Assembly (NCBI GenBank): GCA_964550305.1
Contig: CAZJYU010000003.1
Location: 20,220 to 84,219 of the forward strand
From: an uncultured Vicinamibacteraceae bacterium
GTDB taxonomy: Bacteria > Acidobacteriota > Vicinamibacteria > Vicinamibacterales > UBA8438
Direction of reading: 5' to 3'
DNA length: 64,000 bases
Position 1 is the first letter of the stretch. The number at the start of each line of letters is the position of its first letter. Of the stretch, positions 6,540 through 25,950 are shown piece after piece. Under the pieces are notes generated by a model. It searched no databases, had not been told where the DNA came from, and saw only the letters and a list, made by a program, of their open reading frames with translations. The translations under genes and the position numbers were made by a program.

Positions 6540-7553
6540 CTATACGTCTTCCTTGAGCGTCACCGCGTCCAGGAACGGCATCATCGCGCGGAGCTCGGCG
6601 CCCACCTCTTCGATCTGGTGCGCCTGCTCCTGCCTGCGCTGCGCCATGAACCAGGGGCGGCCCGCCTTGTCCTCGGCGATCCACTTGCTGGCGTACGTGC
6701 CCTCCTGAATGTCCTTCAGGATCTGCTGCATCGCCTGTCGGGTCTCGTCCGTCACGACGCGCGGGCCACCGGTGTAGTCGCCGTGCTCGGCCGTGTCGCT
6801 CACCGAGTAGCGCATGTAGTTGAGGCCGCCCCGGTAGAAGAGGTCCACGATCAACTTCAGCTCGTGCATGCACTCGAAGTACGCCACTTCGGGCTGGTAA
6901 CCGGCTTTGACCAGAGTCTCGAAACCCGCCTTCACGAGCGCGCTGACGCCACCGCACAGCACCGCCTGCTCACCGAACAGATCCGTCTCGGTTTCCTCCG
7001 CGAACGTGGTCTCGATAACGCCCGCGCGCGTCAGGCCGAGCGCCTTGGCGTACGACAGCGCAAGCGCCTTGGCGCTGCCGGTCGCGTCCTGCTCCACCGC
7101 GATCAGGGCCGGCGTGCCGCCCCCCTCGAGAAATACCTCGCGCACCCGGTGACCGGGCGCCTTGGGGGCGATCAGGGTGACGTCCACGTCGGGGGGTGGC
7201 TGAATCGTCTTGAAGCGGATGTTGAAACCGTGCGCGAACATCAGCATCTTGCCCGCGTCGAGATGCGGCGCCACCTGCTCCGCGTAGATGCCCGCCTGCG
7301 TCGTGTCCGGCGTCAGCAGCATGATGACGTCGGCCCATGCCGCCGCCTCGGCGCCTGACACGACCGTCAAGCCTTCTGCCTCCGCCCTGGCCGTCGACCG
7401 GCTCCCCTCGTGCAGCGCCACGCGCACCGCGACGCCACTCTCCCTGAGATTCAACGCATGCGCGTGTCCCTGCGAGCCGTAGCCGAAAACCGCCACCCTC
7501 CGCCCCTGGATCAGCCCGAGGTCGGCGGAGTCGTCGTAGTAGATCGTCGCCAT
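6540..7553 (-). CDS. ilvC: ketol-acid reductoisomerase
   Basis: [40 protein letters not shown]...[10 protein letters not shown]... is unmistakably class I KARI. It is the last gene of the ilv cluster. Confidence 0.95.
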
Positions 7554-7622
7554 CGTGTCGCTGCCCTCTCGCTGTCGATGTGATGGTTACAGGGCCAGGA
7601 ACGGGCCCGCGAAACGGACAGT

Positions 7623-8219
7623 TTACACCGAGTACGAAACGTCGGGGTCGTCGTCGGTTCCGCCCGACGCCGCCCCGGACGGGCGGTTCGCCGGCCGGAC
7701 CGGGAGGTCGGCCGGATCGATCATCACGCTGTGCGCGCCCCGCACCATGGCTACCCGGCCGGTCCGCACGATCTCGAGGATGCCGTAGGGCCGGAGCACC
7801 TCCAGCAGACCGTCAATCTTCTCCTCCGTGCCGATGGTCTCGATCACCATCGCGTCGGGCCCGACATCCACCACACGCGCCCGGAACGCGTCGGCAAGCT
7901 GCATGACGTGGGTCCGCGTCTCCGCCGTCGCCCCCACCTTGACCATCGCCAGCTCCCGGAACATCACGGCGGCGTCGGTTACATCATGCACGCGCAGGAC
8001 GTTCACCAGCTTGTAGAGATTCGCCTCGAGACGACGTCCGCCGATCGGGTCCGTGCGCACGACGATCGTCATCCGTGACACGCCGGGCGCTTCGGCATGG
8101 CCGACCGTAAGCGACTCGATGTTGAACGCGCGCCGCCGGAAGAGCGAGGCGACCCGGTTCAGCACGCCCGGCTTGTCCTCGACCCAGACGACGAACGTGC
8201 GGCGTGGCTGTGCGGCCAT
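7623..8219 (-). CDS. ilvN: acetolactate synthase small (regulatory) subunit
   Basis: Track ORF 7623..9686 is a fusion artefact. The real gene starts at ATG 8217-8219: MAAQPRRTFVVWVEDKPGVLNRVASLFRRRAFNIESLTVG... (ACT domain). 198 aa. Confidence 0.9.
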   Translation of the reverse strand: MAAQPRRTFVVWVEDKPGVLNRVASLFRRRAFNIESLTVGHAEAPGVSRMTIVVRTDPIGGRRLEANLYKLVNVLRVHDVTDAAVMFRELAMVKVGATAETRTHVMQLADAFRARVVDVGPDAMVIETIGTEEKIDGLLEVLRPYGILEIVRTGRVAMVRGAHSVMIDPADLPVRPANRPSGAASGGTDDDPDVSYSV

Positions 8220-8254
8220 GGTGTGTCTCGCGCCTCCAGCTACTTCGTCTCTCG

Positions 8255-9976
8255 CTACTCGTCGTCCGCCGTCTCGACAATCGGCGCCGGGCTGGGCCGG
8301 CGAATCATATGGTGCAGGTCGGCGCCGGCCGGCACCATCGGGTAGACCGTGTCTTCCTGCTCGACCTGGAAGTCGATCACCACCGTACGGTCGTCGTCGC
8401 GGGCTCGCTGCACCGTCGGTTCCACCTCGCCGCGGGTCTTGACCGTGGCGCCACCCAAGCCAAAACACTGAGCCAGCCTGGCGAAGTCCGGGCTCAGCAG
8501 CGGCGTAGCGGCGTAACGGCGCTCGTAGAAAAACTCCTGCCACTGCCGCACCATGCCGAGATAGCCGTTGTTGATGATCGCCACGTTGATCTTGATCCGC
8601 TCCTGCGCGATCGTGGCGAGCTCCGCCATCGTCATCTGAAAGCCACCGTCGCCCGCCACCACCCACACTTCGGCATCCGGCCTCGCCAGCTTTGCGCCGA
8701 CCGCGGCCGGCAACGCGAAGCCCATCGTCCCGAGGCCGCCCGAAGTAATCAGCGTGCGCGGGTCGTTGTGGTGGTAGTACTGCGCCTCCCACATCTGGTG
8801 CTGGCCAACATCGGTCACGACGATTGCCTTTCCGTCGGTCATCCGCCAGATGTCGTTGATGACGTGCGCAGCGTAGAGGTGCCCACTGTCGGGAAGGTTC
8901 TGGATGTCGCGGACGGCGACGTCCCCTTTCATTTCGCGGATCGTCTCGAGCCACGCCTCGTGACGGTTCTCCTCGACCAGTGGCGCCAAGTCTTCCAGCA
9001 CCGCGGACAGGTCGCCGGCCAGGGCGACATCCACCCGGACGTTCTTGTGGAACTCCGCCGGATCGATGTCCACATGCACCTTGCGCGCATTCGGCGCGTA
9101 GGTCTTCACGTTGCCGGTGACCCGGTCGTCGAAGCGCATGCCGAGCGCCAGCAGGAGATCCGCCTCCTGAATGGCGGCATTGACCCACGACTCGCCATGC
9201 ATCCCCATCATTCCCATGTTGAGCGGATGCTGGGCCGGAACGCCGCCGATGCCAAGCAGCGTCATCGCGATCGGGATGTGCGCCCGCTCGGCCAGCTCCC
9301 GCACCTGTCCCATGGCGCCCGACAGGAGCACGCCGTGACCGGCCAGGATCACCGGCCGCTTGGCCCGGTTCACGAGGTCGGCCGCCCTCCGGTACTCGTC
9401 GTCGGACGCGCGCAGATGCGGCCGGTAGCCCGGCAGCTTCACGTCGTCCGGCCCGAACTGCAACTCGGTCGACGCCTGCTGCGCGTCCTTCGTGATGTCC
9501 ACAAGCACGGGGCCGGGGCGGCCGGATCGCGCGACGTACATCGCCTCGCGAATCACCGGCGCGATCTCTTCGACGTGCGACACCAGATAGTTGTGCTTGG
9601 TAATCGGCAGCGTGACACCGGTGACATCCGTCTCCTGGAACGCGTCCGACCCGATCAGCCGGCTCCCCACCTGACCGGTGATGCACAGAATGGGCGAAGA
9701 GTCGAGCATTGCCGTCGCGATGCCGGTCACCATGTTGGTGGCGCCCGGACCGGAGGTGGCCACCGCCACGCCCACCTGGCCGCTCGCGCGGGCGTAGCCA
9801 TCCGCCATGTGGGTCGCCCCCTGTTCGTGGCGAACCAGAACGTGGCGAATCGGGTACTCCAGCAGCGCGTCGTAAGCAGGCAGGATTGCCCCGCCGGGAT
9901 AGCCGAAGACGGTGCCGACACCCTCCCGCACCAGCGCTTCCCAGATGATCTGCGCGCCCGTTCTCATCGAAGCCAT
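8255..9976 (-). CDS. ilvB: acetolactate synthase large (catalytic) subunit
   Basis: MASMRTGAQIIWEALVREGVGTVFGYPGGAILPAYDAL...GPGATNMVTG...GLGTMGFALPAAVGAK...GDGGFQM are ThDP/FAD AHAS motifs. Confidence 0.95.
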   Translation of the reverse strand: MASMRTGAQIIWEALVREGVGTVFGYPGGAILPAYDALLEYPIRHVLVRHEQGATHMADGYARASGQVGVAVATSGPGATNMVTGIATAMLDSSPILCITGQVGSRLIGSDAFQETDVTGVTLPITKHNYLVSHVEEIAPVIREAMYVARSGRPGPVLVDITKDAQQASTELQFGPDDVKLPGYRPHLRASDDEYRRAADLVNRAKRPVILAGHGVLLSGAMGQVRELAERAHIPIAMTLLGIGGVPAQHPLNMGMMGMHGESWVNAAIQEADLLLALGMRFDDRVTGNVKTYAPNARKVHVDIDPAEFHKNVRVDVALAGDLSAVLEDLAPLVEENRHEAWLETIREMKGDVAVRDIQNLPDSGHLYAAHVINDIWRMTDGKAIVVTDVGQHQMWEAQYYHHNDPRTLITSGGLGTMGFALPAAVGAKLARPDAEVWVVAGDGGFQMTMAELATIAQERIKINVAIINNGYLGMVRQWQEFFYERRYAATPLLSPDFARLAQCFGLGGATVKTRGEVEPTVQRARDDDRTVVIDFQVEQEDTVYPMVPAGADLHHMIRRPSPAPIVETADDE

Positions 9977-10016
9977 GTCGTTGCCTCTTGCCTGATTGTG
10001 CCCGTGCCCCGGCTCG

Positions 10017-11684
10017 TCAGTTCGTTACCGCCCCACCCGCCGCCGACGAGACGAGCCGCGCGTACTTCGCCATCACTCCGCTCCGGAACCGCGGCTCCGG
10101 CGGCTGCCACGCCGCGAGGCGCGACGTGATCTCCGCCGCGTCCACTTCGAGCTCCAGCCTGCGGTTCCGTTCGTCGAACAGGATCGGATCGCCGTCCCGC
10201 ACCACCGCGATGGGACCGCCCGACGCCGCCTCCGGCGCCACATGGCCTGCCATCATGCCGCGCGTCGCGCCGGAGAAGCGGCCGTCGGTCAGGAGCGCTA
10301 CCGACTCGCCCAGACCGGCGCCGACAATGGCCGCGGTCACGGCCAGCATCTCACGCATCCCCGGCCCTCCCTTGGGACCCTCGTACCGGATCACCACCAC
10401 GTCGCCCGGCCGAACCCGTCCTGCCCCGACCGCTCCGAACGCCGCTTCCTCGCTGTCGAACACGCGCGCCGGACCCCGGTGCGTCGACGGCTCGTGGCCC
10501 GCCACCTTCACCACGCATCCTTCGGGGGCCAGATTCCCCTTCAGGATCACCAGCCCCCCCGTGGGAGTTATCGGGTCGGTGACCGAACGGACCACCTCCT
10601 GCCCCTCGGTCTCCACGGTCGCGCGCGCCACCTCGCCGATGGTCTGGCCCGTCACGGTCAGGGCGTCCTCCCGCAACAGGCCCGCCTCCTGCAGCCGCTT
10701 GGCCACCAGACCGATGCCGCCGGCACGATACATGTCGGTGGCCACGAAGCGGCCGCCGGGCTTGAGGTCCGCCAGCAGCGGGGTCCGCTCACTTACCCGG
10801 TCGAAGTCGTCGATTGCGAGATCGACTCCGGCCTCGTGCGCTATCGCCAACAGATGCAGCACGGCGTTCGTCGAACCGCCGGTCGCGGCGACGGCCGCGA
10901 TGGCGTTGTCGATCGCGGCGCGGGTCACGATCCGGCGGGGGCGGAGATCCTGAGAGACGAGATCCATCACCAGCTCGCCCGCCCGACGCGCGGCATCCGG
11001 CTTCTCGTCGGACATGGCCGGCACGCCGTTCGCACTCATCGGCGATACGCCGAGCAACTCGCAAACCGTCGACATCGTGTTTGCCGTGAACTGCCCGCCG
11101 CACGCACCCGGCCCGGGACACGCGACATCCTCCAGGGCGCAGAGTTGCGCGTCGGTCATCCGCCCCGCCGCATGCGCGCCGACCGCCTCGAAAACATCCT
11201 GGATCGTGACGTCGCGTCCTTCGTACCGGCCCGGCTCGATCGAGCCGCCATAGAGCACGAGTCCGGGGATGTCGAGGCGCACCAGCGCCATCACGCCTCC
11301 GGGGATCGTCTTGTCGCACCCCACGAGGATGACGATGCCGTCGAAGAGGTTGCCGCGCGCCACCAGTTCAATGGAATCGGCCACCACCTCGCGGCTGACG
11401 AGCGAGGCTTTCATTCCCTCGCTACCCATCGTGATGCCATCGGAGATGGAGACCGTGTTGAACTCCATCGGCGTGCCGCCGGCGGCGCGGATCCCGGCCT
11501 TCACCTGAGCGGCGAGGTCGCGCAGGTGATAGTTGCAGGGACCGATCTCGATCCAGGTGTTCGCGATACCGATGATGGGCCGTGCGAGATCGGCATCGCT
11601 GAAGCCGACCGCCTTCAGCATCGCGCGAGCCGGCGCGCGGCTCGGTCCGTCGGTGATCGCCGCGCTGCGTCGTTCGGGAGCCAT
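10017..11684 (-). CDS. ilvD: dihydroxy-acid dehydratase
   Basis: [54 protein letters not shown]...CDKTIPG...ATDGRFSG is the IlvD/Edd family. Start placed at ATG 11684. The track start at 11747 would lie inside the terminator hairpin of the leader. Confidence 0.9.
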
Positions 11685-11705
11685 TCTGTCTGTCACCAGC
11701 CTCAT

Positions 11706-11740
11706 AAAGAAAAAGCCATCATCCGCTGTCGGATGATGGC
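11706..11740 (-). terminator. intrinsic terminator of the ilv attenuator
   Basis: The minus strand reads GCCATCATCCG-ACAG-CGGATGATGGC followed by TTTTTCTTT: an 11-bp perfect stem, a 4-nt loop and a U-run, ending about 20 nt before the ilvD ATG. Confidence 0.75.
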
Positions 11741-11773
11741 CCTTCAAGGTCGCCGTGGGTGCGGATCAGGACA

Positions 11774-11851
11774 TCATCCGGTTGCGGCCGGCGTAATGGC
11801 GCCGGCCACGCGAACGATGACGACGATGAAACGCTCCCACAGAGCCGCCAT
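11774..11851 (-). CDS. ilv operon leader peptide (25 aa, Ile/Val-rich)
   Basis: Minus-strand ATG at 11851 gives MAALWERFIVVIVRVAGAITPAATG* with five consecutive Ile/Val codons (11813-11827). Its stop codon is embedded in CGGAUGAUG, which duplicates the 3' arm of the downstream terminator. Confidence 0.7.
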   Translation of the reverse strand: MAALWERFIVVIVRVAGAITPAATG

Positions 11852-11887
11852 CTGCTTCCGGGCAAGGCCCGTGCCGCTGTTCAGGCC

Positions 11888-17532: not shown

Positions 17533-19635
17533 ATGCCGGCCGAGCCGCCGCTCGCGTGGGGCCGATCGACCGTCGAAACCGCCTGCCCACTCGACTGCCC
17601 CGACACCTGCAGCCTGGCGGTATCGGTGGAGCGCGGCCGCGTCACGAAGATCGATCACTCCACCCGTCACGACGCCACTGCGGGGTACATCTGCCGCAAA
17701 GTGCGCGAATTCCAGGGGCGGGTTTACGGCCCGGATCGGCTGCATCATCCTGGTCGGCGGCGCGGCCAGCGGGGCGACGCGGACTTCGAGCGGATCGGCT
17801 GGGACCAGGCGCTCGACGAGATTGCCGGCCGGATGCGGGCAATCCGGGACGAATCCGGCGCTCAGGCAATCCTCCCTATCTCGTATGGCGGATCGAACGG
17901 CCTGCTCTCCCAGGACACCGTGGACGCCCGGTTGTTTCGCGCGTTCGGCACGTCGCGCCTCGCGCGCAACGTCTGCTCCGCGCCCACCACGACGGCGTCG
18001 GCAACCCTGTACGGCCGGATGCCGGGCGTGGCGTACGAGGACTACCGGCACGCCCGACTGATCGTGATCTGGGGCGCGAACCCGTCGACGTCCGGGTTTC
18101 ATCTGGTCCCGCATGTGCGCGCCGCCATGCGCGAGGGCGCGGCGCTGGTGGTGATCGATCCACGGCGCACGCCGCTCGCGCGGCAAGCCGACATTCACCT
18201 CGCCGTCCGACCCGGCACGGACGTGGTGGTAGCCCTCGCGATCCACCGGTTCCTGTTCGAACACGGCCACGCCGACACGGCGTTTCTCGACGCGCACGCG
18301 CATCATGCCGATGAACTGCGCCGCCGGGCCGGGGAGTGGACGTTCGACCGGGCCGCCGCGGTTGCCGACGTCGACCCCGGCCTGCTCGAACGGGTGGCTG
18401 CGCTGTACGCCAGGACGTCTCCCGCCGTGATCCGATGCGGCTGGGGGCTCGAGCGAAACCGGAACGGCGGCAACGCCGCCATGGCCGTATTGTCGCTGCC
18501 GGCGGTGGGCGGCAAGTTCGGGGTCCGGGGCGGCGGTTTCTCCATGAGCAGCTCGCGCGCGATCCCGCTTTCCGAAGAAGACTGGATCGGCATGCGGGAA
18601 CCGGCGACGCGTATCGTCAACATGAACCACCTGGGTCGCGCGCTGACGGACTACGACGACCCGCCGGTCAAGATGCTCTTCGTCTACAACTGCAACCCGC
18701 TGGTGACCATGCCAGATCAGAATCGGGTGCTGGCGGGCCTCTCGCGTGAGGACCTGTACACCGTGGTCTTCGATCAGGTGATGACCGACACGGCGCGATG
18801 GGCTGACATCGTGCTGCCGGCGACGACATTCCTCGAACACTACGATCTGGCGCTCAGCTACGGCCATGGCAACGTGCAGATCGTGCAGCCGGCGATTGAA
18901 CCGATGGAGGAGGCCCGACCGAACGTCGACGTCTTCGGCGAACTGGGGGTGCGACTCGGCCTCGACCTGCCGGAGCGCACCCCGGCCGACACGGCCGAGC
19001 TGCTGCACGTTGCCGGTGCGCTGAAGGACAACGCGGGCCAAGCCTTGCTTGCATCGGGCATCACCCGTGGTGCGGCGCATCGCGCCCCGGTGCAGTTCGT
19101 CGATGTCTTGCCTCGGACTCCGGACGCGAAGATCGATCTTGTGCCCGACGACCTCGACCGCCAGGCGCCGCTCGGACTCTACCGCTACCGACCGGCGCCG
19201 GAAGATGACGGCGCCAGCGAGTTTCCCCTCGCGCTGGTTTCGCCCGCCAGCGCCAGGACGGTCAACTCCACGCTGGGCGAACTGGACACCCGCACGGCGC
19301 GCCTTCGGATCCACCCACGGGACGCGGCGCGCCGCGACGTGTCGACGGACGATGTGATCCGCGTCTTCAACGGCCGGGGCGAAGTGCATTGCCTGGCGCT
19401 CGTTGACGCCGACATGAGGCCGGGCGTGGTCTGCCTGCCGAAAGGGCTCTGGCGGCGCAGCACGCTGAACGGCTCGACGGCCAACGCACTCGCGCCGGAC
19501 GATCTCACGGACCTCGGGGACGGCGCCTGTTTCAACGACGCGCGGGTTGAGGTGACGCGCATCGTCACCGCGCGGTTCGGCGGCGAGAGTGTCGCGCTCT
19601 GGACCGACACGTCGGCGGCGAAGGGGCTAAACTAG
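17533..19635 (+). CDS. molybdopterin-dependent oxidoreductase (DMSO reductase superfamily), cytoplasmic
   Basis: N-terminal 4Fe-4S motif C-PLD-C-PDT-C...YIC, then MopB-type regions (ISYGGSNG, VIWGANPS, VVIDPRRT) and a C-terminal molybdopterin dinucleotide-binding beta-barrel (IHPRDAARRDVSTDDVIRVFNGRGEV). No Tat signal. Confidence 0.85.
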   Translation: MPAEPPLAWGRSTVETACPLDCPDTCSLAVSVERGRVTKIDHSTRHDATAGYICRKVREFQGRVYGPDRLHHPGRRRGQRGDADFERIGWDQALDEIAGRMRAIRDESGAQAILPISYGGSNGLLSQDTVDARLFRAFGTSRLARNVCSAPTTTASATLYGRMPGVAYEDYRHARLIVIWGANPSTSGFHLVPHVRAAMREGAALVVIDPRRTPLARQADIHLAVRPGTDVVVALAIHRFLFEHGHADTAFLDAHAHHADELRRRAGEWTFDRAAAVADVDPGLLERVAALYARTSPAVIRCGWGLERNRNGGNAAMAVLSLPAVGGKFGVRGGGFSMSSSRAIPLSEEDWIGMREPATRIVNMNHLGRALTDYDDPPVKMLFVYNCNPLVTMPDQNRVLAGLSREDLYTVVFDQVMTDTARWADIVLPATTFLEHYDLALSYGHGNVQIVQPAIEPMEEARPNVDVFGELGVRLGLDLPERTPADTAELLHVAGALKDNAGQALLASGITRGAAHRAPVQFVDVLPRTPDAKIDLVPDDLDRQAPLGLYRYRPAPEDDGASEFPLALVSPASARTVNSTLGELDTRTARLRIHPRDAARRDVSTDDVIRVFNGRGEVHCLALVDADMRPGVVCLPKGLWRRSTLNGSTANALAPDDLTDLGDGACFNDARVEVTRIVTARFGGESVALWTDTSAAKGLN

Positions 19636-19678
19636 CGGTACCGTAACCCGCCGCTCCGCTAACCGGGGAGTACCATCA

Positions 19679-19960
19679 ATGGCCGACCGCACCGTGATGT
19701 GCGTGAAATTCGGGAAGACGCTTCCGGGACTGCACGAGCCGCCGTGGCCCGGCGAGCTCGGCCAGCGCATCTACGAGAACGTGTCCGAAGAGGCGTGGAA
19801 GCTCTGGGAAGAGCGCATGAAGATGATCCTGAACGAGTACCGCCTGATGCCTTGGCAGAAGGAAGCCCAGAAGCTGGTCGCCCAGCAGATGGAGGACTTC
19901 TTCTTCGGCGAAGGATCCGCCCTTCCGCCTGACTACGTCCCGCCGCAGGCCAAACAGTAG
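19679..19960 (+). CDS. yggX: Fe(2+)-trafficking / oxidative-damage protection protein YggX
   Basis: MADRTVMCVKFGKTLPGLHEPPWPGELGQRIYENVSEEAWKLWEERMKMILNEYRL... aligns well with E. coli YggX as I remember it (C-x...PGELG.RIY...S.EAW..W). Confidence 0.85.
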   Translation: MADRTVMCVKFGKTLPGLHEPPWPGELGQRIYENVSEEAWKLWEERMKMILNEYRLMPWQKEAQKLVAQQMEDFFFGEGSALPPDYVPPQAKQ

Positions 19961-19962
19961 GA

Positions 19963-21267
19963 CTATCCCGCCGGACGGACGGCCAGCTCCGGCGCAATGT
20001 CGAACCTGAGGCGCGCGTGCGCCGCGCGCGCCGCTTCCACAACGTCGTTCCGATCGCGGCCACGGGCGAAGATGAAGCCGGGGTAGCTCGCGCCCTCCGG
20101 CCACGGGATGAGACGCTCACCCGGCTTGGCGGTAACGATCACCTCTTCGATCCCCGGCACCGCGCGCGCCGCGTCCACGCCCGTGACCTCCCGGCAGATG
20201 CCGGCGCCAGGCACCGGGATCATCATCACCGCCGATGCCTCGTCCGACACGCGCCAGCCATCGACTGCATCTCCGAGCGCGTGGCGGAGCAGCACCTCCT
20301 CGAGGGTCGCTACTGCCGCGCCATCCCGGCCCGCGCCGGCATGCGCCGGCGGAACGAACCGCAACACCCTCGCGCAGCGCCCGCCGATGGGCCGGGGCGC
20401 CACTTCCAGGACCACCACCGTCTCGCCGTCGATGCGCGCTTCGGCGTGGATCGGGCCGTCGGTGAGTCCAAGAGCGCCAACCGCCCGGGCCACCTGCACG
20501 ATTACGGACTTGCGCAGTTCAGGCGGCAGCGTGTCGGGCCTCGCGTAGATCGTTTCCTCGAAGAAGGGGCCGTCCAGCGGATCCGGCTTGTCGAAGATCG
20601 CGAAGACCTCGAGCGCACCGCCGGTCACCACCCCTTCGACCGCTACCTCCCGGCCGGGCACGAACGCTTCGATCAGCATCGTGTCGTTCGCCGGATCGCG
20701 CTGCGCCCGCACTTCCGGCATCCCGAGGAGACGGCGCAGGCGAGCCGCCGCGGCAAGCAGCTCCTCCGCCGTGTCGGCGCGGATGACGCCGCGGCTCGCC
20801 GACAGCGCCATCGGCTTGACAACGCAGGGAAACACCGCGCCGTCGAGCAGAGCCGCCTTGTCCGCCCCCACCGGCACGGCGCGGAATGCCGGCCCTGGGA
20901 GGCCGGCCGCGCGCAGTCGCTCGCGGGTGCGCTGCTTGTGCGCGGCGGCGCGCGCCGCCTCCGGCGGGTGGCCACGCAGCCCAAGCGCGCGCGCGGCGCC
21001 CGCGGCCACGATAGCGGGGCGGTCGCCCACCGCCACAATGCCATGAATGGGCGGCCGGGCCGCCACAATTGTGTCAACCGCCGCGGACTCGTCGTGGAAC
21101 GGGATCGGCAGAGCCCCGTCCCGCCAGGGATCGTCGAGTTGATGGCACCGGTCGGTCGCAAAGGCAAGGCGCAAGCCGAGACGTTCGGCCGCGCTACCGA
21201 ACGACCGGAGCTGGTACCCGGTGGTGGCGGCCACCACCAGGACGCGCCGGGGATCGGAGCGGTTCAC
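19963..21267 (-). CDS. ATP-grasp domain protein (carboxylate-amine ligase-like)
   Basis: 434 aa with a pre-ATP-grasp Rossmann-like N-terminus and ATP-grasp core motifs (...KQRTRERLRAAGLPGPAF...FPCVVKPMALSASRGVIRA...IEAFVPGREVAVEG...LEVAPRPIGG). GTG start 7 nt after the extended radical SAM stop. Confidence 0.8.
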   Translation of the reverse strand: MNRSDPRRVLVVAATTGYQLRSFGSAAERLGLRLAFATDRCHQLDDPWRDGALPIPFHDESAAVDTIVAARPPIHGIVAVGDRPAIVAAGAARALGLRGHPPEAARAAAHKQRTRERLRAAGLPGPAFRAVPVGADKAALLDGAVFPCVVKPMALSASRGVIRADTAEELLAAAARLRRLLGMPEVRAQRDPANDTMLIEAFVPGREVAVEGVVTGGALEVFAIFDKPDPLDGPFFEETIYARPDTLPPELRKSVIVQVARAVGALGLTDGPIHAEARIDGETVVVLEVAPRPIGGRCARVLRFVPPAHAGAGRDGAAVATLEEVLLRHALGDAVDGWRVSDEASAVMMIPVPGAGICREVTGVDAARAVPGIEEVIVTAKPGERLIPWPEGASYPGFIFARGRDRNDVVEAARAAHARLRFDIAPELAVRPAG

Positions 21268-21274
21268 GGCACGG

Positions 21275-22666
21275 TCAGACCAGAGCCACCTGCTCCGGAC
21301 TTGGCTCGGCTCAGCAGTACCACGGCTCGTTCAGGTACGGCATCTCGGTTCGCTGCCGAATCGGAGCCGTTCTGGACGGCGGTGGCGAGGCGTTGGCGTG
21401 GGCAAGAGCCCGGATCTCGTCGAACACCGCGCGGCGGTCGGCCGACAGGCGACGGCCGGCTATCGCCATGACCCCTTCCGCCAGGCGGTCGATTGCGGGA
21501 TCGGCGTGCCGCCACGGATAAACGAGCCGCTGTTCGTCGAACGGCCCGAGCTGCGTCCGAAGGTCGTCCAGATCGAGCAGATGGGAGCCCGACGTCACCA
21601 GCAGCCGCAGGGCCAACTGGATTGGCGCGACCTGTTCGACGAGATCGAGACGGTCGATCTCCGCCAGCAAATCGCGGTAGCCGGCTCCGGTCGTCCAGGG
21701 CGTGAAGGGCACGAACGTCGGCGCCAGCGCCAGGCCGGCATCACGGCAGAGCCCGACGGCACGCTCGACGTCCCGCCGAGTATGGCCCTTCCGCAGACGC
21801 GCGAGGACAGCGTCGTCGAACGACTCGACCGCCGTGGTCACGAAGATGCAGCCGGTTTCCCGGAGGCGCGGCAGCCGATCCGCATGGACGATCAGATGCT
21901 CCACCTTGATCGTGGCGTCGTAGGTGACTCCAGGCCACCGCTCTGCAAGCGCCTCGACGATGCGCATCGCGTGGCCCGGTCCATTGAAGAAATCCGGATC
22001 GCCGAACGTGATGTGCCGCGCTCCCAGCTCGACCTGAGCCGCGATGTCCGCCGCTATCACATCGGGGGGGACAATACGGAAGCGGCCGCCGTAGACCGGA
22101 ACGACCGGGCAGTGCCGGCAGAGATGCCGGCACCCGCGGCTCGCCTCCGTGTAGCCGGCGACGCGCCGCGACGTGCCGTGCTGCAACGTCGCGTAGCGGT
22201 CGAGCGGCGGAAGGCCGCGGCGCCATGGCGCGATCAGGCGCAGGCGCGGCAGGTCCGGCTGGGCGGCGTCGTTCGTGTGCTTCCCAGGCGCCGTCACATC
22301 CACCGCCTCGCCGGAGGCGACGCGGACCAGGTCCGCCTCGAACTCGCCACCCAGGATGTGACCGACGCCCAGCGACCGCAGATAGGAAGCGTTCAGCGGC
22401 GCGTACAGACCGTAGGCGCAGATCTCTGCGGCCGGGTTGATCCGCTGTGCGCGGCGAATCACCGGTGTCGCGAGACGCGTCGCGGTATGCATCGGCAGGT
22501 GAAACGCGACCAGGTGGGCGCTGGCCACCGCGCCGGTATCCAACGACTGCCGCGACAGGTCGAAGCAGGTGACCGTATGCCCCGCGCGCCGGAGCCACGC
22601 GGCCGGCGACGCCAGACCGAACGGCTGGCGCCCCAGCTCGTACGTCGCGATCAGCGTGACGTTCAT
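21275..22666 (-). CDS. B12-binding-domain radical SAM protein, probable selenoprotein with C-U-A-E-P tail (TGA 21311-21313 read as Sec)
   Basis: ATG at 22666 overlaps the stop of the upstream SSS gene (ATGA). N-terminal Rossmann-like B12-type domain and a CRHLCRHC (CxxxCxxC) radical SAM cluster. The track ORF ends ...NEPWYC at TGA, but the same frame continues AEPSPEQVALV to TGA 21275-21277, with a hairpin right after the first TGA. Confidence 0.7.
21279..21310 (-). promoter_or_regulatory. candidate bacterial SECIS hairpin
   Basis: RNA downstream of UGA: GAGCCA pairs with UGGCUC (6 bp), AGU bulge, CC/GG, apical loop GGAGCA about 18-23 nt after the U of UGA. Possible lower extension C5-G34, C6-G33. 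Confidence 0.45.
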
Positions 22667-24105
22667 GCCGCTGCCGAGGTGGCGCGCAGTTCCACTTCCG
22701 CCTCCGACGGCGGCGGGGTGAGCAGACTCACCACCAACAGGGTCAGAATCGATAGCAGGAGCGCCGGATAGGCGGTCTGCCACCCGAACAGATAGACCGG
22801 ATTGCCGTCGACCGCGCGGGCGAGTCCGATGATCTCCCAGACGAGCGTCGTCACCATGCCTACGGCAATCGACGCCACGCCGCCCGCGCGCGTCGCCCGC
22901 TTCCATACGAGCGCGCCGAGCAGGGCCGGGGTGATCCCGGCGCCGTACATCGTGTACGCCCACAGCGCCATCGCCAGGATCGTGGGGAAGAAAGTCCCGG
23001 CAACGTAGCCGAGCGCACCGACCGCGACAACGATCAGCCGCGTATACATCACGACCTGCCGGTCGCTGACCTCCGGATTGATGAAACGCTGGTAGACATC
23101 CCGGATCAGGTTGGTTGAAGGCGTCAGGAGGAAGCTGTTCGCCGTCGACACGACGATCGCCGCCGCGCCGCAAACCAGGAGCACGCCGAGACCGGCCGGC
23201 AGCACGTCGGTCGCCACGCGGATGACGATCGCTTCCGACTGCGCGGCATCCAGGCCGCCAATCCGCAGCGACCCGAGAATGCCGGTCGAATCAATCAACG
23301 TCTCGACCACGATCGTGCCGACGATCCACCCGAGCACGGCCAGGCGGGCCGCCCGCTCGTCGCGCGCCGAGAAGAACTTCTGGTACATGTTCGCTTCGCC
23401 GAGGAGCAGGAACATGGTGGGGAGAAACAGCGCGAATGCGGCCTGCGGACCGATGTCACCGAACAGCGACACCTGGTGAGGCTGGAGCTGTCCGATCGAC
23501 GCGCCGAGCCCGCCCGCGTCGCCGACCAGGTAGGCCACGCCCAGGGCGACCGCGATCGTCATGATCAAACCGTTACCGACGTCGATATAGGCGATCGACA
23601 ACATGCCGGCGAGCGCCGTGAAGAGGATGCAGAAGATCGCCGTCACGAGCGCTCCGGTCCCCGGATCGATGCCAGCCACAAGCTCCAGCACGCGCCCGCC
23701 GCCCCGGAACTGGTAGGCGGCGATCGTGCCGTAGGCCAGCACCGTGGTGATCGTGCCGAGGATGCGCGCGGCGGGGCCGTAGCGCAGCTCCAGGATGTCG
23801 GGGACGGTGTACTGCGCTATGCGGCGGACGCGCGGCGCAAGAAAGTAGACCAGCGCGATGCCGACCCAGGCGCCCGCCGATTGCCACAGCACCGCAAAGC
23901 CCGTACGGTAACCGAGGCCGGCGCCGCCGAACAGGCTGCCCGATCCAATCCAGGTCGCGAGGAGCGTGAACACCAGGACGTGCGCCGGCAGGCGGCGCCC
24001 CGCCACGAGGAAGTCGTCACCGGTCCGGACGCGGCGACTGCGCCACACGCCGATCAACACCAGAAGCGACAAGTAGAGGACGACTGCGGTCAGCACGCCC
24101 ATCAT
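22663..24105 (-). CDS. sodium:solute symporter (SSS/SSF) family transporter
   Basis: 480 aa, about 13 TM segments. N-terminus ...GVWRSRRVRTGDDFLVAGRRLPAHVLVFTLLATWIGSGSLFGGAGLGY is typical of the SSF family. Confidence 0.85.
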   Translation of the reverse strand: MMGVLTAVVLYLSLLVLIGVWRSRRVRTGDDFLVAGRRLPAHVLVFTLLATWIGSGSLFGGAGLGYRTGFAVLWQSAGAWVGIALVYFLAPRVRRIAQYTVPDILELRYGPAARILGTITTVLAYGTIAAYQFRGGGRVLELVAGIDPGTGALVTAIFCILFTALAGMLSIAYIDVGNGLIMTIAVALGVAYLVGDAGGLGASIGQLQPHQVSLFGDIGPQAAFALFLPTMFLLLGEANMYQKFFSARDERAARLAVLGWIVGTIVVETLIDSTGILGSLRIGGLDAAQSEAIVIRVATDVLPAGLGVLLVCGAAAIVVSTANSFLLTPSTNLIRDVYQRFINPEVSDRQVVMYTRLIVVAVGALGYVAGTFFPTILAMALWAYTMYGAGITPALLGALVWKRATRAGGVASIAVGMVTTLVWEIIGLARAVDGNPVYLFGWQTAYPALLLSILTLLVVSLLTPPPSEAEVELRATSAAA

Positions 24106-24129
24106 TCTGGATCATCTGCCGCATAATGA

Positions 24130-24975
24130 TTGCCTGGCCCCGCCCGCCCGCCGATGCCGACGAAGAAATCCACGACGAAGCAGACGCTCGGGCCGGCGTT
24201 GATGCGCACTCTCCGGCCGCAGCGATCCAGGCCGGCGCCGGCGGAACGGCCGCTCGACGAGTACCGGCAGAAACGCGACTTCGAGAGAACGCCGGAACCC
24301 GATGGCCGCGCACGGCCGAGGGCCGGGCGGACGCGCCCGCGCCGGGCGCCCGAACGGTTCTTCTGCGTCCAGAAGCACCTGGCGAGCCACCTCCACTACG
24401 ACCTCCGTCTCGAGCACCGAGGCGTCCTGCTGTCGTGGGCGGTGCCCAAGGGCCCGTCGCTGCGGCCTTCGGACAAGCGGATGGCGGTTCAGACTGAGGA
24501 TCATCCGTACGATTACGGCACTTTCGAAGGCGTCATTCCCGAGGGCTACGGCGCCGGCATCGTGATGTTGTGGGACCGCGGCGGTTGGACCCCCGAGGTG
24601 GACGATGTCGACGCGGCGCTGGCGCGGGGCGACCTGAAGTTCTCGCTCGACGGCTTCAAGCTGAAGGGATCGTGGGCACTGGTCCGGCTGCGCGACCGCC
24701 CCGACACGCCACCGAAGCAGCGCGGGCGCAACTGGCTGCTGATCAAGCACGCCGACTTCTGGTCGGGCGATGTCGACATTGCGGCGTTTGCCCCGCTGAG
24801 CGTCAAGAGCGAAGGGGATTTCGACGACATCCTGGCCGACGAGATGCCGGCGCAGTGGATCACGGGGCGGCCGGCGACTGCCGCGGGCCGGGGACGCGCC
24901 GCGGCGATGACACGAGCGGTGATCGAGCGGGCAGCAAAGAAGATTCTCGAGCGGCAGCGCCGGCGTCAGGACTGA
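24130..24975 (+). CDS. stand-alone LigD-type 3'-phosphoesterase (PE) domain protein
   Basis: LDEYRQKRDFERTPEP...FCVQKHLASHLHYDLRLE..GVLLSWAVPKGPS...EDHPYDYGTFEGVIPEGYGAGIVMLWDRG matches the LigD PE domain. Basic Pro/Arg-rich N-terminal tail, so the start is uncertain (24130, 24154 or later). Confidence 0.8.
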   Translation: MPGPARPPMPTKKSTTKQTLGPALMRTLRPQRSRPAPAERPLDEYRQKRDFERTPEPDGRARPRAGRTRPRRAPERFFCVQKHLASHLHYDLRLEHRGVLLSWAVPKGPSLRPSDKRMAVQTEDHPYDYGTFEGVIPEGYGAGIVMLWDRGGWTPEVDDVDAALARGDLKFSLDGFKLKGSWALVRLRDRPDTPPKQRGRNWLLIKHADFWSGDVDIAAFAPLSVKSEGDFDDILADEMPAQWITGRPATAAGRGRAAAMTRAVIERAAKKILERQRRRQD

Positions 24976-24984
24976 CAGGCCGGC

Positions 24985-25950
24985 CTATTGAAGGAGGCGA
25001 CGGGCCAGGACGCTCCAGACCGCGTAGGCGAGGCGACGGCGAGAATGGCGCGCAATGTCCCCCTGTGAGAACTGCCCCGTGACGAGCTCGCACCCGCCGG
25101 GGATGGCGCCGATTGGGAGCAGGTCCTTGTGCTCCTTTGCGTAGCGCGCCATCACGTCCGGTTTGGGTCTGGCGGTATTGGCAATGGCAACATCGACCTG
25201 CCGGCCGATCGCATCGCCTACCCGGCGCACCGCCTCTCCCACCGAGAAGCCATGCATCCCGCGTCCCTCGGTCACGATGTTCGTCACCAGGATGATGGGT
25301 CCGTGGGTCGCGGAGACTGCCTCTGCGACGCCGCGGACCAGCAGTATCGGCATCAGGCTGGTATAGAAACTGCCCGGGCCGATCACGATCGCATCGAATC
25401 CGCGGATCGCCTCGGTGACCGCGGAGTGAACTGACGGAACCGGATCGAGCCAGATCCGGCGAATCCGGCTGCCGTTGGTCTGCGCTCGATCGACCCCCAC
25501 CTCGCTCTCGGCGCGGGTCCCGTCCTCGTACTCCGCGTAGAGCGTTGACTGCTCGATGCTGACCGGAAGCACGCGGCCATGGCAGTCGAGCAGGCTCCGG
25601 AGGCCATCGACCGCGGCGAGGAAGTCGCCGCTGTACTGCTCCATCATCGACAGCAGCAGGTTGCCGCCGGTATGCCCCCCGAGACGGCCGTTCTCGAACG
25701 ACGGCAGGCGCGTCAACAGCAGGCGGCGCGCCTCCTGTTCATTGCGCGCCAGCGCAAGGGCGCACTTCAGCACGTCACCCGGCGGCAGCACGCCGAGTTC
25801 GTCCCGCAACTGCCCGGAGCTGCCGCCGCTGTCGAACATCGTGACGACGGCATGGACCTGTACCCACGGGTTCTGCTTGAGCCCCCCGAGCAGGCTGGGG
25901 AGGCCGGTGCCACCGCCCAGACAGCCCACGTTCAGACTGCGCAACTCCAC
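24985..25950 (-). CDS. YvcK/CofD-family protein (gluconeogenesis factor-like, UPF0052)
   Basis: GCLGGGTGLPSLLGGLK...TMFDSGGSSGQLRDELGVLPPGD...GHTGGNLLL...IVIGPGSFYTSLMP are hallmark YvcK/CofD motifs. GTG start. Confidence 0.85.
   Translation of the reverse strand: MELRSLNVGCLGGGTGLPSLLGGLKQNPWVQVHAVVTMFDSGGSSGQLRDELGVLPPGDVLKCALALARNEQEARRLLLTRLPSFENGRLGGHTGGNLLLSMMEQYSGDFLAAVDGLRSLLDCHGRVLPVSIEQSTLYAEYEDGTRAESEVGVDRAQTNGSRIRRIWLDPVPSVHSAVTEAIRGFDAIVIGPGSFYTSLMPILLVRGVAEAVSATHGPIILVTNIVTEGRGMHGFSVGEAVRRVGDAIGRQVDVAIANTARPKPDVMARYAKEHKDLLPIGAIPGGCELVTGQFSQGDIARHSRRRLAYAVWSVLARRLLQ

What the first reader, a model, noticed from the sequence alone, without database searches (positions are those of the whole stretch)
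19963..24105. Translationally coupled SSS transporter / B12-radical SAM (Sec tail) / ATP-grasp ligase operon of unknown function
Seen: three minus-strand genes are packed with an ATGA overlap (22663-22666) and a 7-nt gap once the Sec extension is included. A divergent gene lies upstream and a convergent gene (yggX, 2 nt away) lies downstream, so this is a self-contained three-gene unit. Established: B12-domain radical SAM enzymes usually catalyse chemically difficult C-methylation or rearrangement, ATP-grasp enzymes ligate carboxylates to amines, and SSS transporters import small solutes. Inference: the unit looks like an import, radical modification and ligation pathway for a small molecule (for example an amino-acid-like solute). 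I found no candidate precursor-peptide ORF next to it, which argues against a RiPP cluster. I do not recognise this trio as a described pathway.
Basis: partly seen in the sequence, partly recalled or inferred. Interest (0 to 1): 0.7.

Follow-up and report, generated by a model that had tools for sequence, protein, structure and literature searches.

The report
Selenoprotein radical SAM plus amino-acid ligase operon
A soil Acidobacteria operon pairs a selenocysteine-tailed radical SAM enzyme, whose only studied relative makes the carbon-arsenic bond of an antibiotic, with a dipeptide-forming ligase; the pair is conserved in many genomes but its product is unknown.

Summary
Three minus-strand genes are tightly packed: a 4-nt ATGA overlap, and a 7-nt gap once the in-frame UGA is read as selenocysteine.

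The radical SAM gene belongs to a named but uncharacterised NCBIfam family, NF040546, "CUAEP/CCAEP-tail radical SAM (seleno)protein" (632 bits, cutoff 500). Selenocysteine is well supported:
- 61 of 78 related loci have TGA and 17 have TGC/TGT at that codon.
- The AEP tail stays in frame after it.
- A hairpin with a stem of at least 5 bp follows the codon in 57/61 TGA loci and 0/17 Cys loci.

The only characterised relative is ArsL (33% identity, full length). ArsL cleaves SAM to methylthioadenosine plus a 3-amino-3-carboxypropyl unit and captures it on arsenic held by a C-terminal Cys tail. The B12 domain match is sub-threshold, so B12-type C-methylation is not the best inference.

The ATP-grasp gene is an L-amino-acid ligase; its closest solved relative is the Met-specific BL00235. 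It lies directly downstream of the radical SAM gene in 54/67 loci. YggX is nearby in 47/66.

The SSS transporter is present in only 13/69 loci. A peptide (POT) transporter sits there in 18/69.

The core unit is therefore radical SAM + ligase (+ YggX), and the transporter is accessory. The function is untested.

The parts
22663..24105 (-). Sodium:solute symporter (SSS) family transporter, 480 aa. It is the first gene of the unit and is a lineage-restricted accessory.
   Evidence: Pfam SSF PF00474 at 119.7 bits. NCBIfam sss superfamily scores 143.5 (cutoff 184), PutP 141 and PanF 115, all below cutoff, so the substrate cannot be assigned. It lies upstream on the same strand in 13/69 related loci.
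21275..22666 (-). CUAEP/CCAEP-tail radical SAM selenoprotein, 463 aa including Sec. It has the CxxxCxxC motif at C179/C183/C186 and the tail ...YLNEPWYC-U-AEPSPEQVALV.
   Evidence: NF040546 at 632 bits (cutoff 500); ArsL model NF040542 at 245 bits (cutoff 450). Cys-containing homologues carry the tail CCAEPNPDQLRLV. Whole-length alignment to ArsL at 33% identity. AF2 model with mean pLDDT 86, tail disordered, best fold match AprD4.
21311..21313 (-). In-frame UGA read as selenocysteine (the Cys-Sec dipeptide of the tail).
   Evidence: 61 of 78 distinct related loci have TGA and 17 have TGC/TGT at this codon, with the AEP... tail conserved in frame after it. 117/120 and 119/120 database homologues end at W[YF]C, meaning they are annotated as truncated at the UGA.
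21280..21298 (-). SECIS-like hairpin: 7-bp stem and 5-nt loop AGGUG. It starts 13 nt after the UGA and lies inside the tail coding sequence.
   Evidence: 82% of cells paired versus 43-54% when the partners are slid; covariation score exceeded by 0/500 shuffles. An uninterrupted stem of at least 5 bp occurs in 57/61 Sec loci and 0/17 Cys loci.
19963..21267 (-). ATP-grasp L-amino-acid-ligase-like enzyme, 434 aa. It is the conserved partner of the radical SAM gene.
   Evidence: Pfam ATP-grasp_4 at 91.5, LAL_C2 at 63 and ATPgrasp_N at 31.7 bits, all above cutoff. Best solved relative is L-amino acid ligase BL00235 (3VOT), E 1.4e-35 over residues 25-402, followed by BacD. It lies immediately downstream of the radical SAM gene in 54/67 loci.
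19679..19960 (+). YggX (Fe(2+)-trafficking / oxidative-damage protection protein), 93 aa. It is convergent here and is a probable accessory of the module.
   Evidence: NF003817 at 117.5 bits (cutoff 74) and Pfam Iron_traffic. It lies within 5.5 kb downstream in 47/66 loci, always together with the ligase: 38 convergent and 9 co-directional. In L087 it overlaps the ligase gene by 14 nt on the same strand; in L088 it follows after 25 nt.

Best explanation
The unit is one instance of a conserved Acidobacteriota module. Its core is a selenocysteine-tailed radical SAM enzyme (NF040546) followed by an L-amino-acid ligase, usually with YggX alongside. The SSS transporter is a lineage-specific add-on.

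Proposed mechanism; the first and last steps below rest on sequence evidence obtained here, steps 2 to 4 are inferred:
1. Translation reads the UGA at 21313-21311 as Sec, using the hairpin at 21298-21280. This gives a flexible C-terminal tail with a vicinal Cys-Sec pair. Shown by comparative sequence evidence.
2. The enzyme, like its only characterised relative ArsL, cleaves SAM at the C-gamma-S bond. This yields methylthioadenosine and a 3-amino-3-carboxypropyl (ACP) unit on or near the [4Fe-4S] cluster. Inferred from homology.
3. A soft nucleophile captures the ACP unit. This nucleophile is either held by the Cys-Sec tail or is the tail itself. Candidates are a chalcogen (S or Se) or a metalloid. 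The product would be a gamma-heteroatom-substituted 2-aminobutyrate, i.e. a methionine/homocysteine-like amino acid. Inferred.
4. The ligase condenses that amino acid with a second amino acid to give a dipeptide. Inferred from family membership and from the Met specificity of its closest solved relative.
5. YggX supplies or protects iron of the oxygen-labile cluster. Inferred.
6. The SSS transporter here, or a POT peptide transporter in sister lineages, moves a precursor or the product. This is the weakest link.
For: - Family membership and Sec.
- ArsL is the second-best NCBIfam model (245 bits; the next best scores 51). It aligns over the whole length at 33% identity, with its tail KRCCLKC aligned to WYC[C/U]AEP.
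- ArsL chemistry (MTA + ACP, arsenite bound by the C-terminal Cys residues, Fe-C-gamma organometallic species attacked by the nucleophile).
- Haft notes that the CU motif is rare and otherwise seen in proteins of organometallic chemistry such as HgcA, MerB-like and MerT proteins.
- The ligase has all three LAL Pfam domains and full-length similarity to BL00235, which makes Met-Gly and Met-Met.
- Adjacency: 54/67 loci, with gaps often of only a few tens of nt. All 3 reverse look-ups show the pair, including a 4-nt radical SAM/ligase overlap in L088.
- The pair keeps together although the flanks differ between classes: LigD-PE plus a transporter in Vicinamibacterales-type loci, aconitase and lgt in Acidoferrales-type loci.
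- YggX: 47/66 loci, and co-transcribed in some lineages. YggX has been proposed as a ferrous iron donor for Fe-S clusters.
- Peptide (PTR2) transporters sit at the same position in 18/69 loci, which fits a peptide product.
Against: - No biochemistry exists for any NF040546 member.
- The ArsL score is well below the ArsL cutoff, and the tail has two rather than three chalcogen ligands.
- No ars genes lie within +/-8 kb in any of the 80 loci or in the 64-kb window, so arsenic is not indicated and the captured atom is unknown.
- In the Thermomicrobiales/Chloroflexota branch the radical SAM gene stands alone, with no ligase or YggX and with variable neighbours. The ligase is therefore not obligatory for its function.
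- The locus sits among housekeeping genes with unremarkable GC content, which argues against an antibiotic island.
- The 80 loci are the closest relatives of at least 598 hits, so the conservation figures are biased towards Acidobacteriota.
- Both SSS and POT transporters are typically importers. L019 has both, so the transporters may be only syntenic.
Confidence: 0.4

Rival explanations
1. Canonical radical chemistry with a redox or H-atom-donor tail. The enzyme makes the usual 5'-deoxyadenosyl radical and modifies an amino acid or the ligase's dipeptide, for example by epimerisation, C-C or C-S bond formation, or dehydration. The mobile Cys-Sec tail would act like the GCUG tail of thioredoxin reductase, or like the H-atom-donating Cys of radical SAM epimerases, quenching a product radical or shuttling electrons.
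For: The enzyme has a standard CxxxCxxC motif and PF04055 domain. Its nearest fold, AprD4, uses 5'-dA chemistry. The tail is predicted to be disordered and mobile. Sec/Cys interchange is typical of redox-active sites, and the C-terminal Cys-Sec redox tail of TrxR is established knowledge (own knowledge).
Against: The only characterised homologue with full-length similarity is ArsL, which also has CxxxCxxC yet makes ACP and MTA. AprD4 similarity is at fold level only (19% identity; NF033070 27 bits).
Confidence: 0.2
2. A cobalamin-dependent (class B) radical SAM methylase or rearrangement enzyme acts on a small solute imported by the SSS transporter, and the ATP-grasp enzyme then ligates the product.
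For: The N-terminal Rossmann-like domain resembles B12-binding domains. OxsB, TsrM, TokK and CysS are fold hits. PF02310 is recorded for some homologues. SSS and radical SAM are translationally coupled in this window.
Against: PF02310 scores 17.1 bits against a cutoff of 32.1 for this protein and gives no hit for ArsL or the T. roseum member. The best fold hit is the radical SAM diol dehydratase AprD4. ArsL was reconstituted with SAM, dithionite and arsenite. The class-B methylase models of NCBIfam score at most 51 bits. SSS is present in only 13/69 loci.
Confidence: 0.08
3. Trojan-horse antimetabolite cluster, a special case of the best explanation. The radical SAM enzyme makes an arsinothricin/phosphinothricin-like glutamate or methionine analogue. 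The ligase masks it as a dipeptide, as in bacilysin, tabtoxin or rhizocticin, and a transporter exports it.
For: ArsL makes the arsinothricin precursor, and arsL sits next to a permease gene arsQ. Characterised LALs such as BacD and RhiM/RhiC build warhead dipeptides. Peptide and solute transporters are adjacent.
Against: The module looks vertically inherited and is embedded in conserved housekeeping synteny across at least 598 genome hits. GC content is not atypical. No resistance gene such as an ArsN-type acetyltransferase and no ars genes were found. SSS and POT families are usually importers (established knowledge).
Confidence: 0.12
4. Adjacency without shared function. The three genes are neighbours only through inherited synteny in Acidobacteriota and act in unrelated processes.
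For: In Chloroflexota/Thermomicrobiales the radical SAM gene is solitary. The SSS gene is not conserved. LigD-PE, YvcK and a molybdopterin oxidoreductase are also syntenic in many loci without any evident functional link.
Against: Radical SAM followed by the ligase stays contiguous and co-directional, often with overlapping or near-touching ORFs, across classes whose other flanking genes differ completely. For the radical SAM/ligase pair this rival is unlikely. For the SSS gene it is about as likely as a functional link.
Confidence: 0.12

Closest known systems
NCBIfam NF040546, CUAEP/CCAEP-tail radical SAM (seleno)protein
   Same: The window protein scores 632 bits (cutoff 500). It has the CxxxCxxC motif, the C-U-A-E-P tail and a UGA with a SECIS-like hairpin. 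It is a member of this family.
   Different: Nothing distinguishes it from the family. The family itself has no assigned function and is described as 'uncharacterized' in Haft's 2022 preprint.
ArsL (NF040542, RCCLKC-tail radical SAM) of the arsQML arsinothricin cluster
   Same: It is homologous over the full length (33% identity) and is the second-best NCBIfam model. Both have a Cys-rich C-terminal tail with a vicinal pair aligned at the same position, and both lie next to a transporter gene.
   Different: It scores below the ArsL cutoff (245 vs 450). The tail is C-U/C-AEP with two chalcogen ligands instead of the three Cys of CCxxC, and about 45 extra residues precede it. Cys276 is conserved in this family but absent from ArsL. 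There are no arsM, arsQ, arsN or other ars genes nearby, and the partner is an L-amino-acid ligase rather than a methyltransferase.
L-amino acid ligases (BL00235, BacD/YwfE, RizA, RhiM/RhiC, TabS, LdmS)
   Same: It has the same three-domain ATP-grasp architecture (ATPgrasp_N, ATP-grasp_4, LAL_C2). It is similar over the full length to BL00235, E 1.4e-35.
   Different: No NCBIfam equivalog is reached; BacD scores 36 bits against a cutoff of 850. It forms a large, unnamed, mostly Acidobacteriota clade annotated only as 'ATP-grasp domain-containing protein'. Its substrates are unknown.
C-terminal Cys-Sec redox tail of mammalian thioredoxin reductase (GCUG)
   Same: Both have a vicinal Cys-Sec pair on a flexible C-terminal extension, and Cys replaces Sec in some orthologues. 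The comparison with TrxR rests on my own knowledge.
   Different: The protein fold and cofactor are unrelated, and the tail is longer (C-U + 11 residues here). This is a resemblance recalled from memory, not a tested relationship.
Dph2 (diphthamide synthesis), the other ACP-radical-forming [4Fe-4S]/SAM enzyme
   Same: It would share the chemistry (C-gamma-S cleavage of SAM) if the ArsL analogy holds.
   Different: Dph2 lacks the CxxxCxxC motif and the TIM-barrel fold of PF04055. There is no sequence relationship.

Membership tests
NF040546 CUAEP/CCAEP-tail radical SAM (seleno)protein | Whole-protein HMM score at or above the curated cutoff (500 bits) | tested here: met
   632 bits, residues 3-461 on model positions 1-467 of 468.
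NF040546 CUAEP/CCAEP-tail radical SAM (seleno)protein | C-terminal C-[U/C]-A-E-P motif | tested here: met
   The tail reads ...EPWYC-TGA-AEPSPEQVALV. The same tail occurs with Cys in P0100, P0118 and L016.
NF040546 CUAEP/CCAEP-tail radical SAM (seleno)protein | Radical SAM CxxxCxxC cluster motif | tested here: met
   C179-x3-C183-x2-C186, invariant in 240 homologues and in ArsL. PF04055 at 57.8 bits.
Bacterial selenoprotein gene | In-frame UGA aligned with Cys in homologues, with the reading frame conserved downstream | tested here: met
   61 TGA versus 17 TGC/TGT among 78 loci, with the tail conserved after the codon.
Bacterial selenoprotein gene | SECIS hairpin shortly downstream of the UGA | tested here: met
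   7-bp stem with loop AGGUG at 21298-21280. Covariation supported. Present in 57/61 Sec loci and 0/17 Cys loci. No Rfam family matched.
Bacterial selenoprotein gene | Sec machinery (selA, selB, selD, tRNA-Sec) in the genome | not testable with these tools
   Only tRNA-Pro and tRNA-Arg were found in the 64-kb window. The rest of the genome is not available.
ArsL (NF040542), arsinothricin biosynthesis radical SAM | HMM score at or above 450 bits | tested here: not met
   245.3 bits.
ArsL (NF040542), arsinothricin biosynthesis radical SAM | C-terminal RCCLKC (CCxxC) arsenite-binding motif | tested here: not met
   The tail is WYC-U-AEP. Only the vicinal pair aligns and there is no third Cys.
ArsL (NF040542), arsinothricin biosynthesis radical SAM | Genomic context with arsM, arsQ or other ars genes | tested here: not met
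   tblastn with ArsM, ArsQ, ArsN1, ArsR, ArsC, ArsH and the arsenic transporter found nothing in the 80 loci or in the window.
ArsL (NF040542), arsinothricin biosynthesis radical SAM | SAM cleaved to MTA + ACP rather than 5'-dA + Met | not testable with these tools
   This needs an anaerobic enzyme assay.
Cobalamin-dependent (class B) radical SAM enzymes | B12-binding domain (PF02310) at the gathering threshold | tested here: not met
   17.1 bits against a cutoff of 32.1, E 0.005.
Cobalamin-dependent (class B) radical SAM enzymes | N-terminal Rossmann-like domain plus radical SAM barrel fold | tested here: inconclusive
   The fold matches OxsB, TsrM, TokK and CysS, but the best match is the radical SAM diol dehydratase AprD4. 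The fold alone does not show cobalamin use.
L-amino acid ligase (ATP-grasp) | ATPgrasp_N + ATP-grasp_4 + LAL_C2 domain architecture | tested here: met
   31.7, 91.5 and 63 bits, all above the Pfam cutoffs.
L-amino acid ligase (ATP-grasp) | Full-length similarity to a biochemically characterised LAL | tested here: met
   BL00235 (3VOT), E 1.4e-35, residues 25-402 aligned to 22-393. BacD at E about 1e-7.
L-amino acid ligase (ATP-grasp) | ATP-dependent dipeptide formation from free L-amino acids | not testable with these tools
   This needs an enzyme assay.
Sodium:solute symporter family | PF00474 at the gathering threshold; assignment to a substrate-specific equivalog | tested here: inconclusive
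   PF00474 scores 119.7 bits and is met. No NCBIfam cutoff is reached: sss 143.5 of 184, PutP 141 of 515, PanF 115 of 328.
RiPP biosynthetic cluster | Precursor-peptide ORF adjacent to the radical SAM or ATP-grasp maturase | tested here: not met
   There is a 4-nt overlap and a 7-nt gap inside the unit and 2 nt after it. No recurrent small ORF cluster appeared next to the pair in the 80 loci.
Operon (co-transcribed unit) | Same strand, overlapping or near-touching ORFs, no internal terminator; a polycistronic transcript | tested here: inconclusive
   The geometry is met and terminator-like sites are at chance level. Transcripts cannot be tested here.

The most novel reading that the evidence does not exclude
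NF040546 enzymes may be a widespread class of selenoenzymes that build a carbon-heteroatom bond (C-Se, C-S or C-metalloid). They would do this by transferring the aminocarboxypropyl group of SAM onto an atom held by, or belonging to, their Cys-Sec tail. In Acidobacteriota the resulting non-proteinogenic amino acid would then be made into a dipeptide by a dedicated L-amino-acid ligase. This would be a new SAM-derived small molecule, such as a low-molecular-weight thiol/selenol, a metallophore or an antimetabolite, produced by some of the most abundant soil bacteria.
Probability: 0.15. Interest if true: 0.85.

Novelty: new variant of a known kind. Interest (0 to 1): 0.6.

Why it matters
ArsL is so far the only canonical-motif radical SAM enzyme shown to make an aminocarboxypropyl unit instead of the 5'-deoxyadenosyl radical. 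Its closest sister family is far larger: more than 8000 90%-identity clusters in each of two searches, and at least 598 hits in species-representative genomes, mainly Acidobacteriota and Chloroflexota. That sister family is almost always a selenoprotein and has no known function.

Three results here turn an anonymous hypothetical operon into a concrete biochemical hypothesis:
- In Acidobacteriota the enzyme is locked to an L-amino-acid ligase and to YggX.
- The transporter is dispensable.
- Arsenic genes are absent.

The resulting assay is defined: measure MTA versus 5'-dA, find what the Cys-Sec tail binds, and find which amino acids the ligase joins.

The work also shows that public annotations of this family are nearly all truncated at the UGA. 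This hides the residue most likely to matter for catalysis.

Tried and rejected
- My own GC3-based gene caller repeatedly picked antisense shadow ORFs and merged genes in this 68% GC DNA. One 'cluster' mixed the antisense ORF of the radical SAM gene with a real POT transporter. I therefore based all counts on tblastn with defined queries and on precomputed gene calls.
- An exact-sequence look-up of the window's SSS protein found nothing. The look-ups for the radical SAM protein and the Mo-oxidoreductase returned only contigs of at most 4.6 kb, so no longer contig of the same organism was obtained.
- The Rfam scan of 19000-25000 gave only chance-level hits and no SECIS family.
- The promoter/terminator scan was uninformative: 0 promoter-like sites and 2 terminator-like sites against 2.3 expected.
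- Literature searches for CUAEP, CCAEP and NF040546, and for selenoprotein radical SAM enzymes in Acidobacteria, found no functional study.
- An arsenic link was rejected as unsupported because no ars genes were found.
- A recurrent partner in loci lacking the ligase was sought and not found. The neighbours there are housekeeping genes and vary: aconitase, ThrRS, Fpg, QueC/QueE, an integrase, MetE, GGT and a peptidase.
- No correlation was seen between Sec/Cys usage and presence of the ligase.
- Tail-to-cluster distances could not be measured, because the structure tool returns no coordinates and the tail is low-confidence.

Full report
**Observation.** The region holds three minus-strand ORFs:
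- an SSS-family transporter (22663-24105, 480 aa);
- a radical SAM gene whose ATG (22666-22664) overlaps the transporter's TGA (22665-22663), giving the ATGA overlap;
- an ATP-grasp gene (GTG at 21267, ending at 19963).

The radical SAM frame reaches TGA at 21313-21311 after ...YLNEPWYC. It then continues AEPSPEQVALV to a second TGA at 21277-21275, which leaves 7 nt before the ATP-grasp start. yggX (19679-19960, +) converges with 2 nt between the stop codons, and a LigD 3'-phosphoesterase-domain gene diverges from 24130. The DNA is about 68% GC throughout, and the locus is compositionally unremarkable.

**Identity of the radical SAM protein.** With U written as C, the protein scores 632 bits on NCBIfam NF040546, 'CUAEP/CCAEP-tail radical SAM (seleno)protein' (cutoff 500). 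The second hit is NF040542, ArsL, at 245 bits (cutoff 450). Everything else scores at most 51 bits. Haft's 2022 preprint names NF040546 as an uncharacterised CU-motif selenoprotein. It notes that the CU motif is otherwise seen in HgcA, MerB-like and MerT proteins. Searches for CUAEP, CCAEP, NF040546 and related terms found no functional study.

**Selenocysteine.**
- Among 78 distinct related loci, the codon after EPW[YF]C is TGA in 61 and TGC/TGT in 17. The AEP... tail is conserved in frame in all of them.
- Cys-containing homologues end ...WYCCAEPNPDQLRLV.
- A hairpin at window 21298-21280 (7 bp, loop AGGUG) starts 13 nt after the UGA. In 60 aligned Sec loci, 82% of cells pair, against 43-54% when the partners are slid. 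Three positions change on both sides, and 0/500 shuffles reach the covariation score.
- An uninterrupted stem of at least 5 bp is present in 57/61 Sec loci and 0/17 Cys loci. This is the behaviour expected of a bacterial SECIS.
- Public protein entries of the family are almost all truncated at the UGA: 117/120 Acidobacteriota-type and 119/120 Chloroflexota-type hits end in W[YF]C.

**Relation to ArsL and to B12 enzymes.** An annotated ArsL from a Pseudomonas amygdali plasmid aligns over its whole length at 33% identity. Its KRCCLKC tail aligns with WYC[C/U]AEP.

What is known about ArsL:
- It cleaves SAM to methylthioadenosine and a 3-amino-3-carboxypropyl (ACP) species.
- It needs its C-terminal Cys motif to bind arsenite.
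- It was reconstituted with SAM, dithionite and arsenite.
- A 2026 preprint reports an Fe-C-gamma organometallic intermediate that the arsenic nucleophile attacks.

The window protein's B12-binding Pfam match is sub-threshold: 17.1 bits against a cutoff of 32.1. An AlphaFold2 model of the Cys homologue P0100 has mean pLDDT 86 and a disordered tail at residues 449-466. Its best PDB match is the radical SAM diol dehydratase AprD4, followed by OxsB and TsrM. The label 'B12 radical SAM, hence C-methylation' is therefore not the best-supported reading.

Two further Cys residues, besides the cluster ligands and the tail, are conserved in both branches of the family. Cys83 is also present in ArsL; Cys276 is not. 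Their role is unknown.

**The ATP-grasp protein.** It has the ATPgrasp_N, ATP-grasp_4 and LAL_C2 domains, all above their cutoffs. Its best solved relative is the L-amino-acid ligase BL00235 (3VOT), E 1.4e-35 over nearly the full length, followed by BacD. BL00235 makes Met-Gly and Met-Met. Methionine is an ACP-S-methyl amino acid, so a Met-like product of an ArsL-type enzyme would be a natural substrate class. This is a hint, not a demonstration. The ligase clade is large and is annotated only as 'ATP-grasp domain-containing protein'.

**Gene neighbourhoods.** A scan of species-representative genomes returned at least 598 relatives. The best 80 loci are mostly Acidobacteriota (Vicinamibacterales, Bryobacteraceae, Acidoferrales/Terriglobia), with a few Chloroflexota. 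tblastn with the window's proteins gave the following counts:

| Neighbour of the radical SAM gene | Loci |
|---|---|
| Ligase immediately downstream, same strand | 54/67 with enough flank |
| YggX within 5.5 kb downstream (always together with the ligase) | 47/66 (38 convergent, 9 co-directional) |
| SSS gene upstream, same strand | 13/69 |
| POT/PTR2 peptide transporter at that position | 18/69 (mostly divergent) |

- L019 has both transporters.
- Three reverse look-ups starting from ligase homologues all show PTR2, radical SAM, ligase and Iron_traffic. Radical SAM and ligase overlap by 4 nt in L088, and YggX overlaps the ligase gene by 14 nt on the same strand in L087.
- The outer flanks differ between classes: LigD-PE and YvcK in Vicinamibacterales-type loci, aconitase and lgt in Acidoferrales-type loci. 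The pair nevertheless stays together.
- In the Thermomicrobiales/Chloroflexota branch, including Thermomicrobium roseum DSM 5159, the radical SAM gene stands alone with variable neighbours.
- No ars genes occur in any of the 80 loci or in the 64-kb window.

**Interpretation.** The conserved functional unit is radical SAM selenoprotein + L-amino-acid ligase, usually with YggX. The SSS gene is translationally coupled here, but it is a lineage-specific accessory or merely syntenic.

My preferred mechanism (confidence about 0.4) has four parts:
- ArsL-like cleavage of SAM to MTA plus an ACP unit.
- Capture of that unit by a soft nucleophile that is bound to, or is part of, the Cys-Sec tail.
- Release of a gamma-substituted 2-aminobutyrate, which the ligase joins to a second amino acid.
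- Support of the oxygen-labile cluster by YggX, which has been proposed as a ferrous iron donor for Fe-S clusters.

Shown here by sequence evidence: family membership, Sec decoding, ligase family and conservation of the pair. Inferred: the chemistry, the captured atom, the dipeptide product and the role of the transporters.

**Rivals.**
- Canonical 5'-dA chemistry with the Cys-Sec tail as a redox or H-atom donor (0.2).
- A Trojan-horse antimetabolite version of the main model (0.12). Housekeeping synteny and the absence of resistance genes weaken it.
- Pure synteny without shared function (0.12 for the pair, but roughly even odds for the SSS gene).

**Novelty and verdict.** The radical SAM family is already catalogued, and its selenocysteine is known to NCBI's curators. 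The window gene is a new member of a known, uncharacterised family. The searchable literature does not describe the conserved coupling to an L-amino-acid ligase and YggX, the ArsL-based mechanistic reading, or the demonstration that the transporter is dispensable. I rate this as a new variant of a known kind, with interest 0.6. It is a well-defined and widespread enzymological unknown with a clear first experiment, but nothing here shows new chemistry.

Noticed in passing
window 17533-19960 (+): yggX lies 43 nt downstream of, and on the same strand as, a 700-aa molybdopterin oxidoreductase. That oxidoreductase reaches no NCBIfam equivalog cutoff; its best matches are Fdh-alpha, DmsA and NasC-like models at 170-238 bits. 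In this window yggX may therefore be co-transcribed with the oxidoreductase rather than with the ligase. The oxidoreductase recurs near yggX in about 20 of the 80 loci.
   Followed up: partly
window 24130-24975 (+): A stand-alone LigD 3'-phosphoesterase domain protein (TIGR02777, 198 bits), with no ligase or polymerase domain, lies divergent from the SSS gene. It is syntenic in many Vicinamibacterales-type loci, next to a YvcK/CofD-like gene (24985-25950, -).
   Followed up: partly
L016 6404-7948 (-); L087 2863-4407; L088 3198-4559; L089 2948-4348: A POT/PTR2 di/tripeptide permease occupies the slot upstream of the radical SAM gene in sister lineages. It is usually divergent, is co-directional in L089/L090, and occurs together with SSS in L019.
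   Followed up: partly
database homologues P0001-P0120 and P0241-P0360: Almost all public protein entries of this family stop at ...W[YF]C (117/120 and 119/120). They are annotated as truncated at the Sec UGA and lack the U-AEP tail.
   Followed up: yes
radical SAM protein residues C83 and C276 (P0100 numbering); window gene 21275-22666: Two Cys residues outside the cluster motif and the tail are conserved in both the Acidobacteriota and Chloroflexota branches (98-100% and 92-100%). C83 is also present in ArsL; C276 is not. They could be extra ligands for a substrate or an auxiliary site.
   Followed up: no
L085 (Thermomicrobium roseum DSM 5159 megaplasmid NC_011961.1) 7506-11852: A cultured organism carries a family member (WP_012643191, tail SWFC-U-AEPLEDPSG...). 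It is flanked by a divergent PLP-dependent aminotransferase and a convergent MFS transporter, with no ligase. This makes it a possible experimental entry point.
   Followed up: partly
window 21221-22771 (+) and many others: Long antisense 'shadow' ORFs (for example 516 aa opposite the radical SAM gene) are common in this 68% GC DNA. They misled a simple GC3-based gene caller and are not genes.
   Followed up: yes
L086 (Pseudomonas amygdali plasmid NZ_CP127046.1) 4723-9227: In the annotated arsinothricin cluster the permease gene arsQ directly precedes arsL. This parallels the transporter-then-radical-SAM order seen in the window.
   Followed up: no
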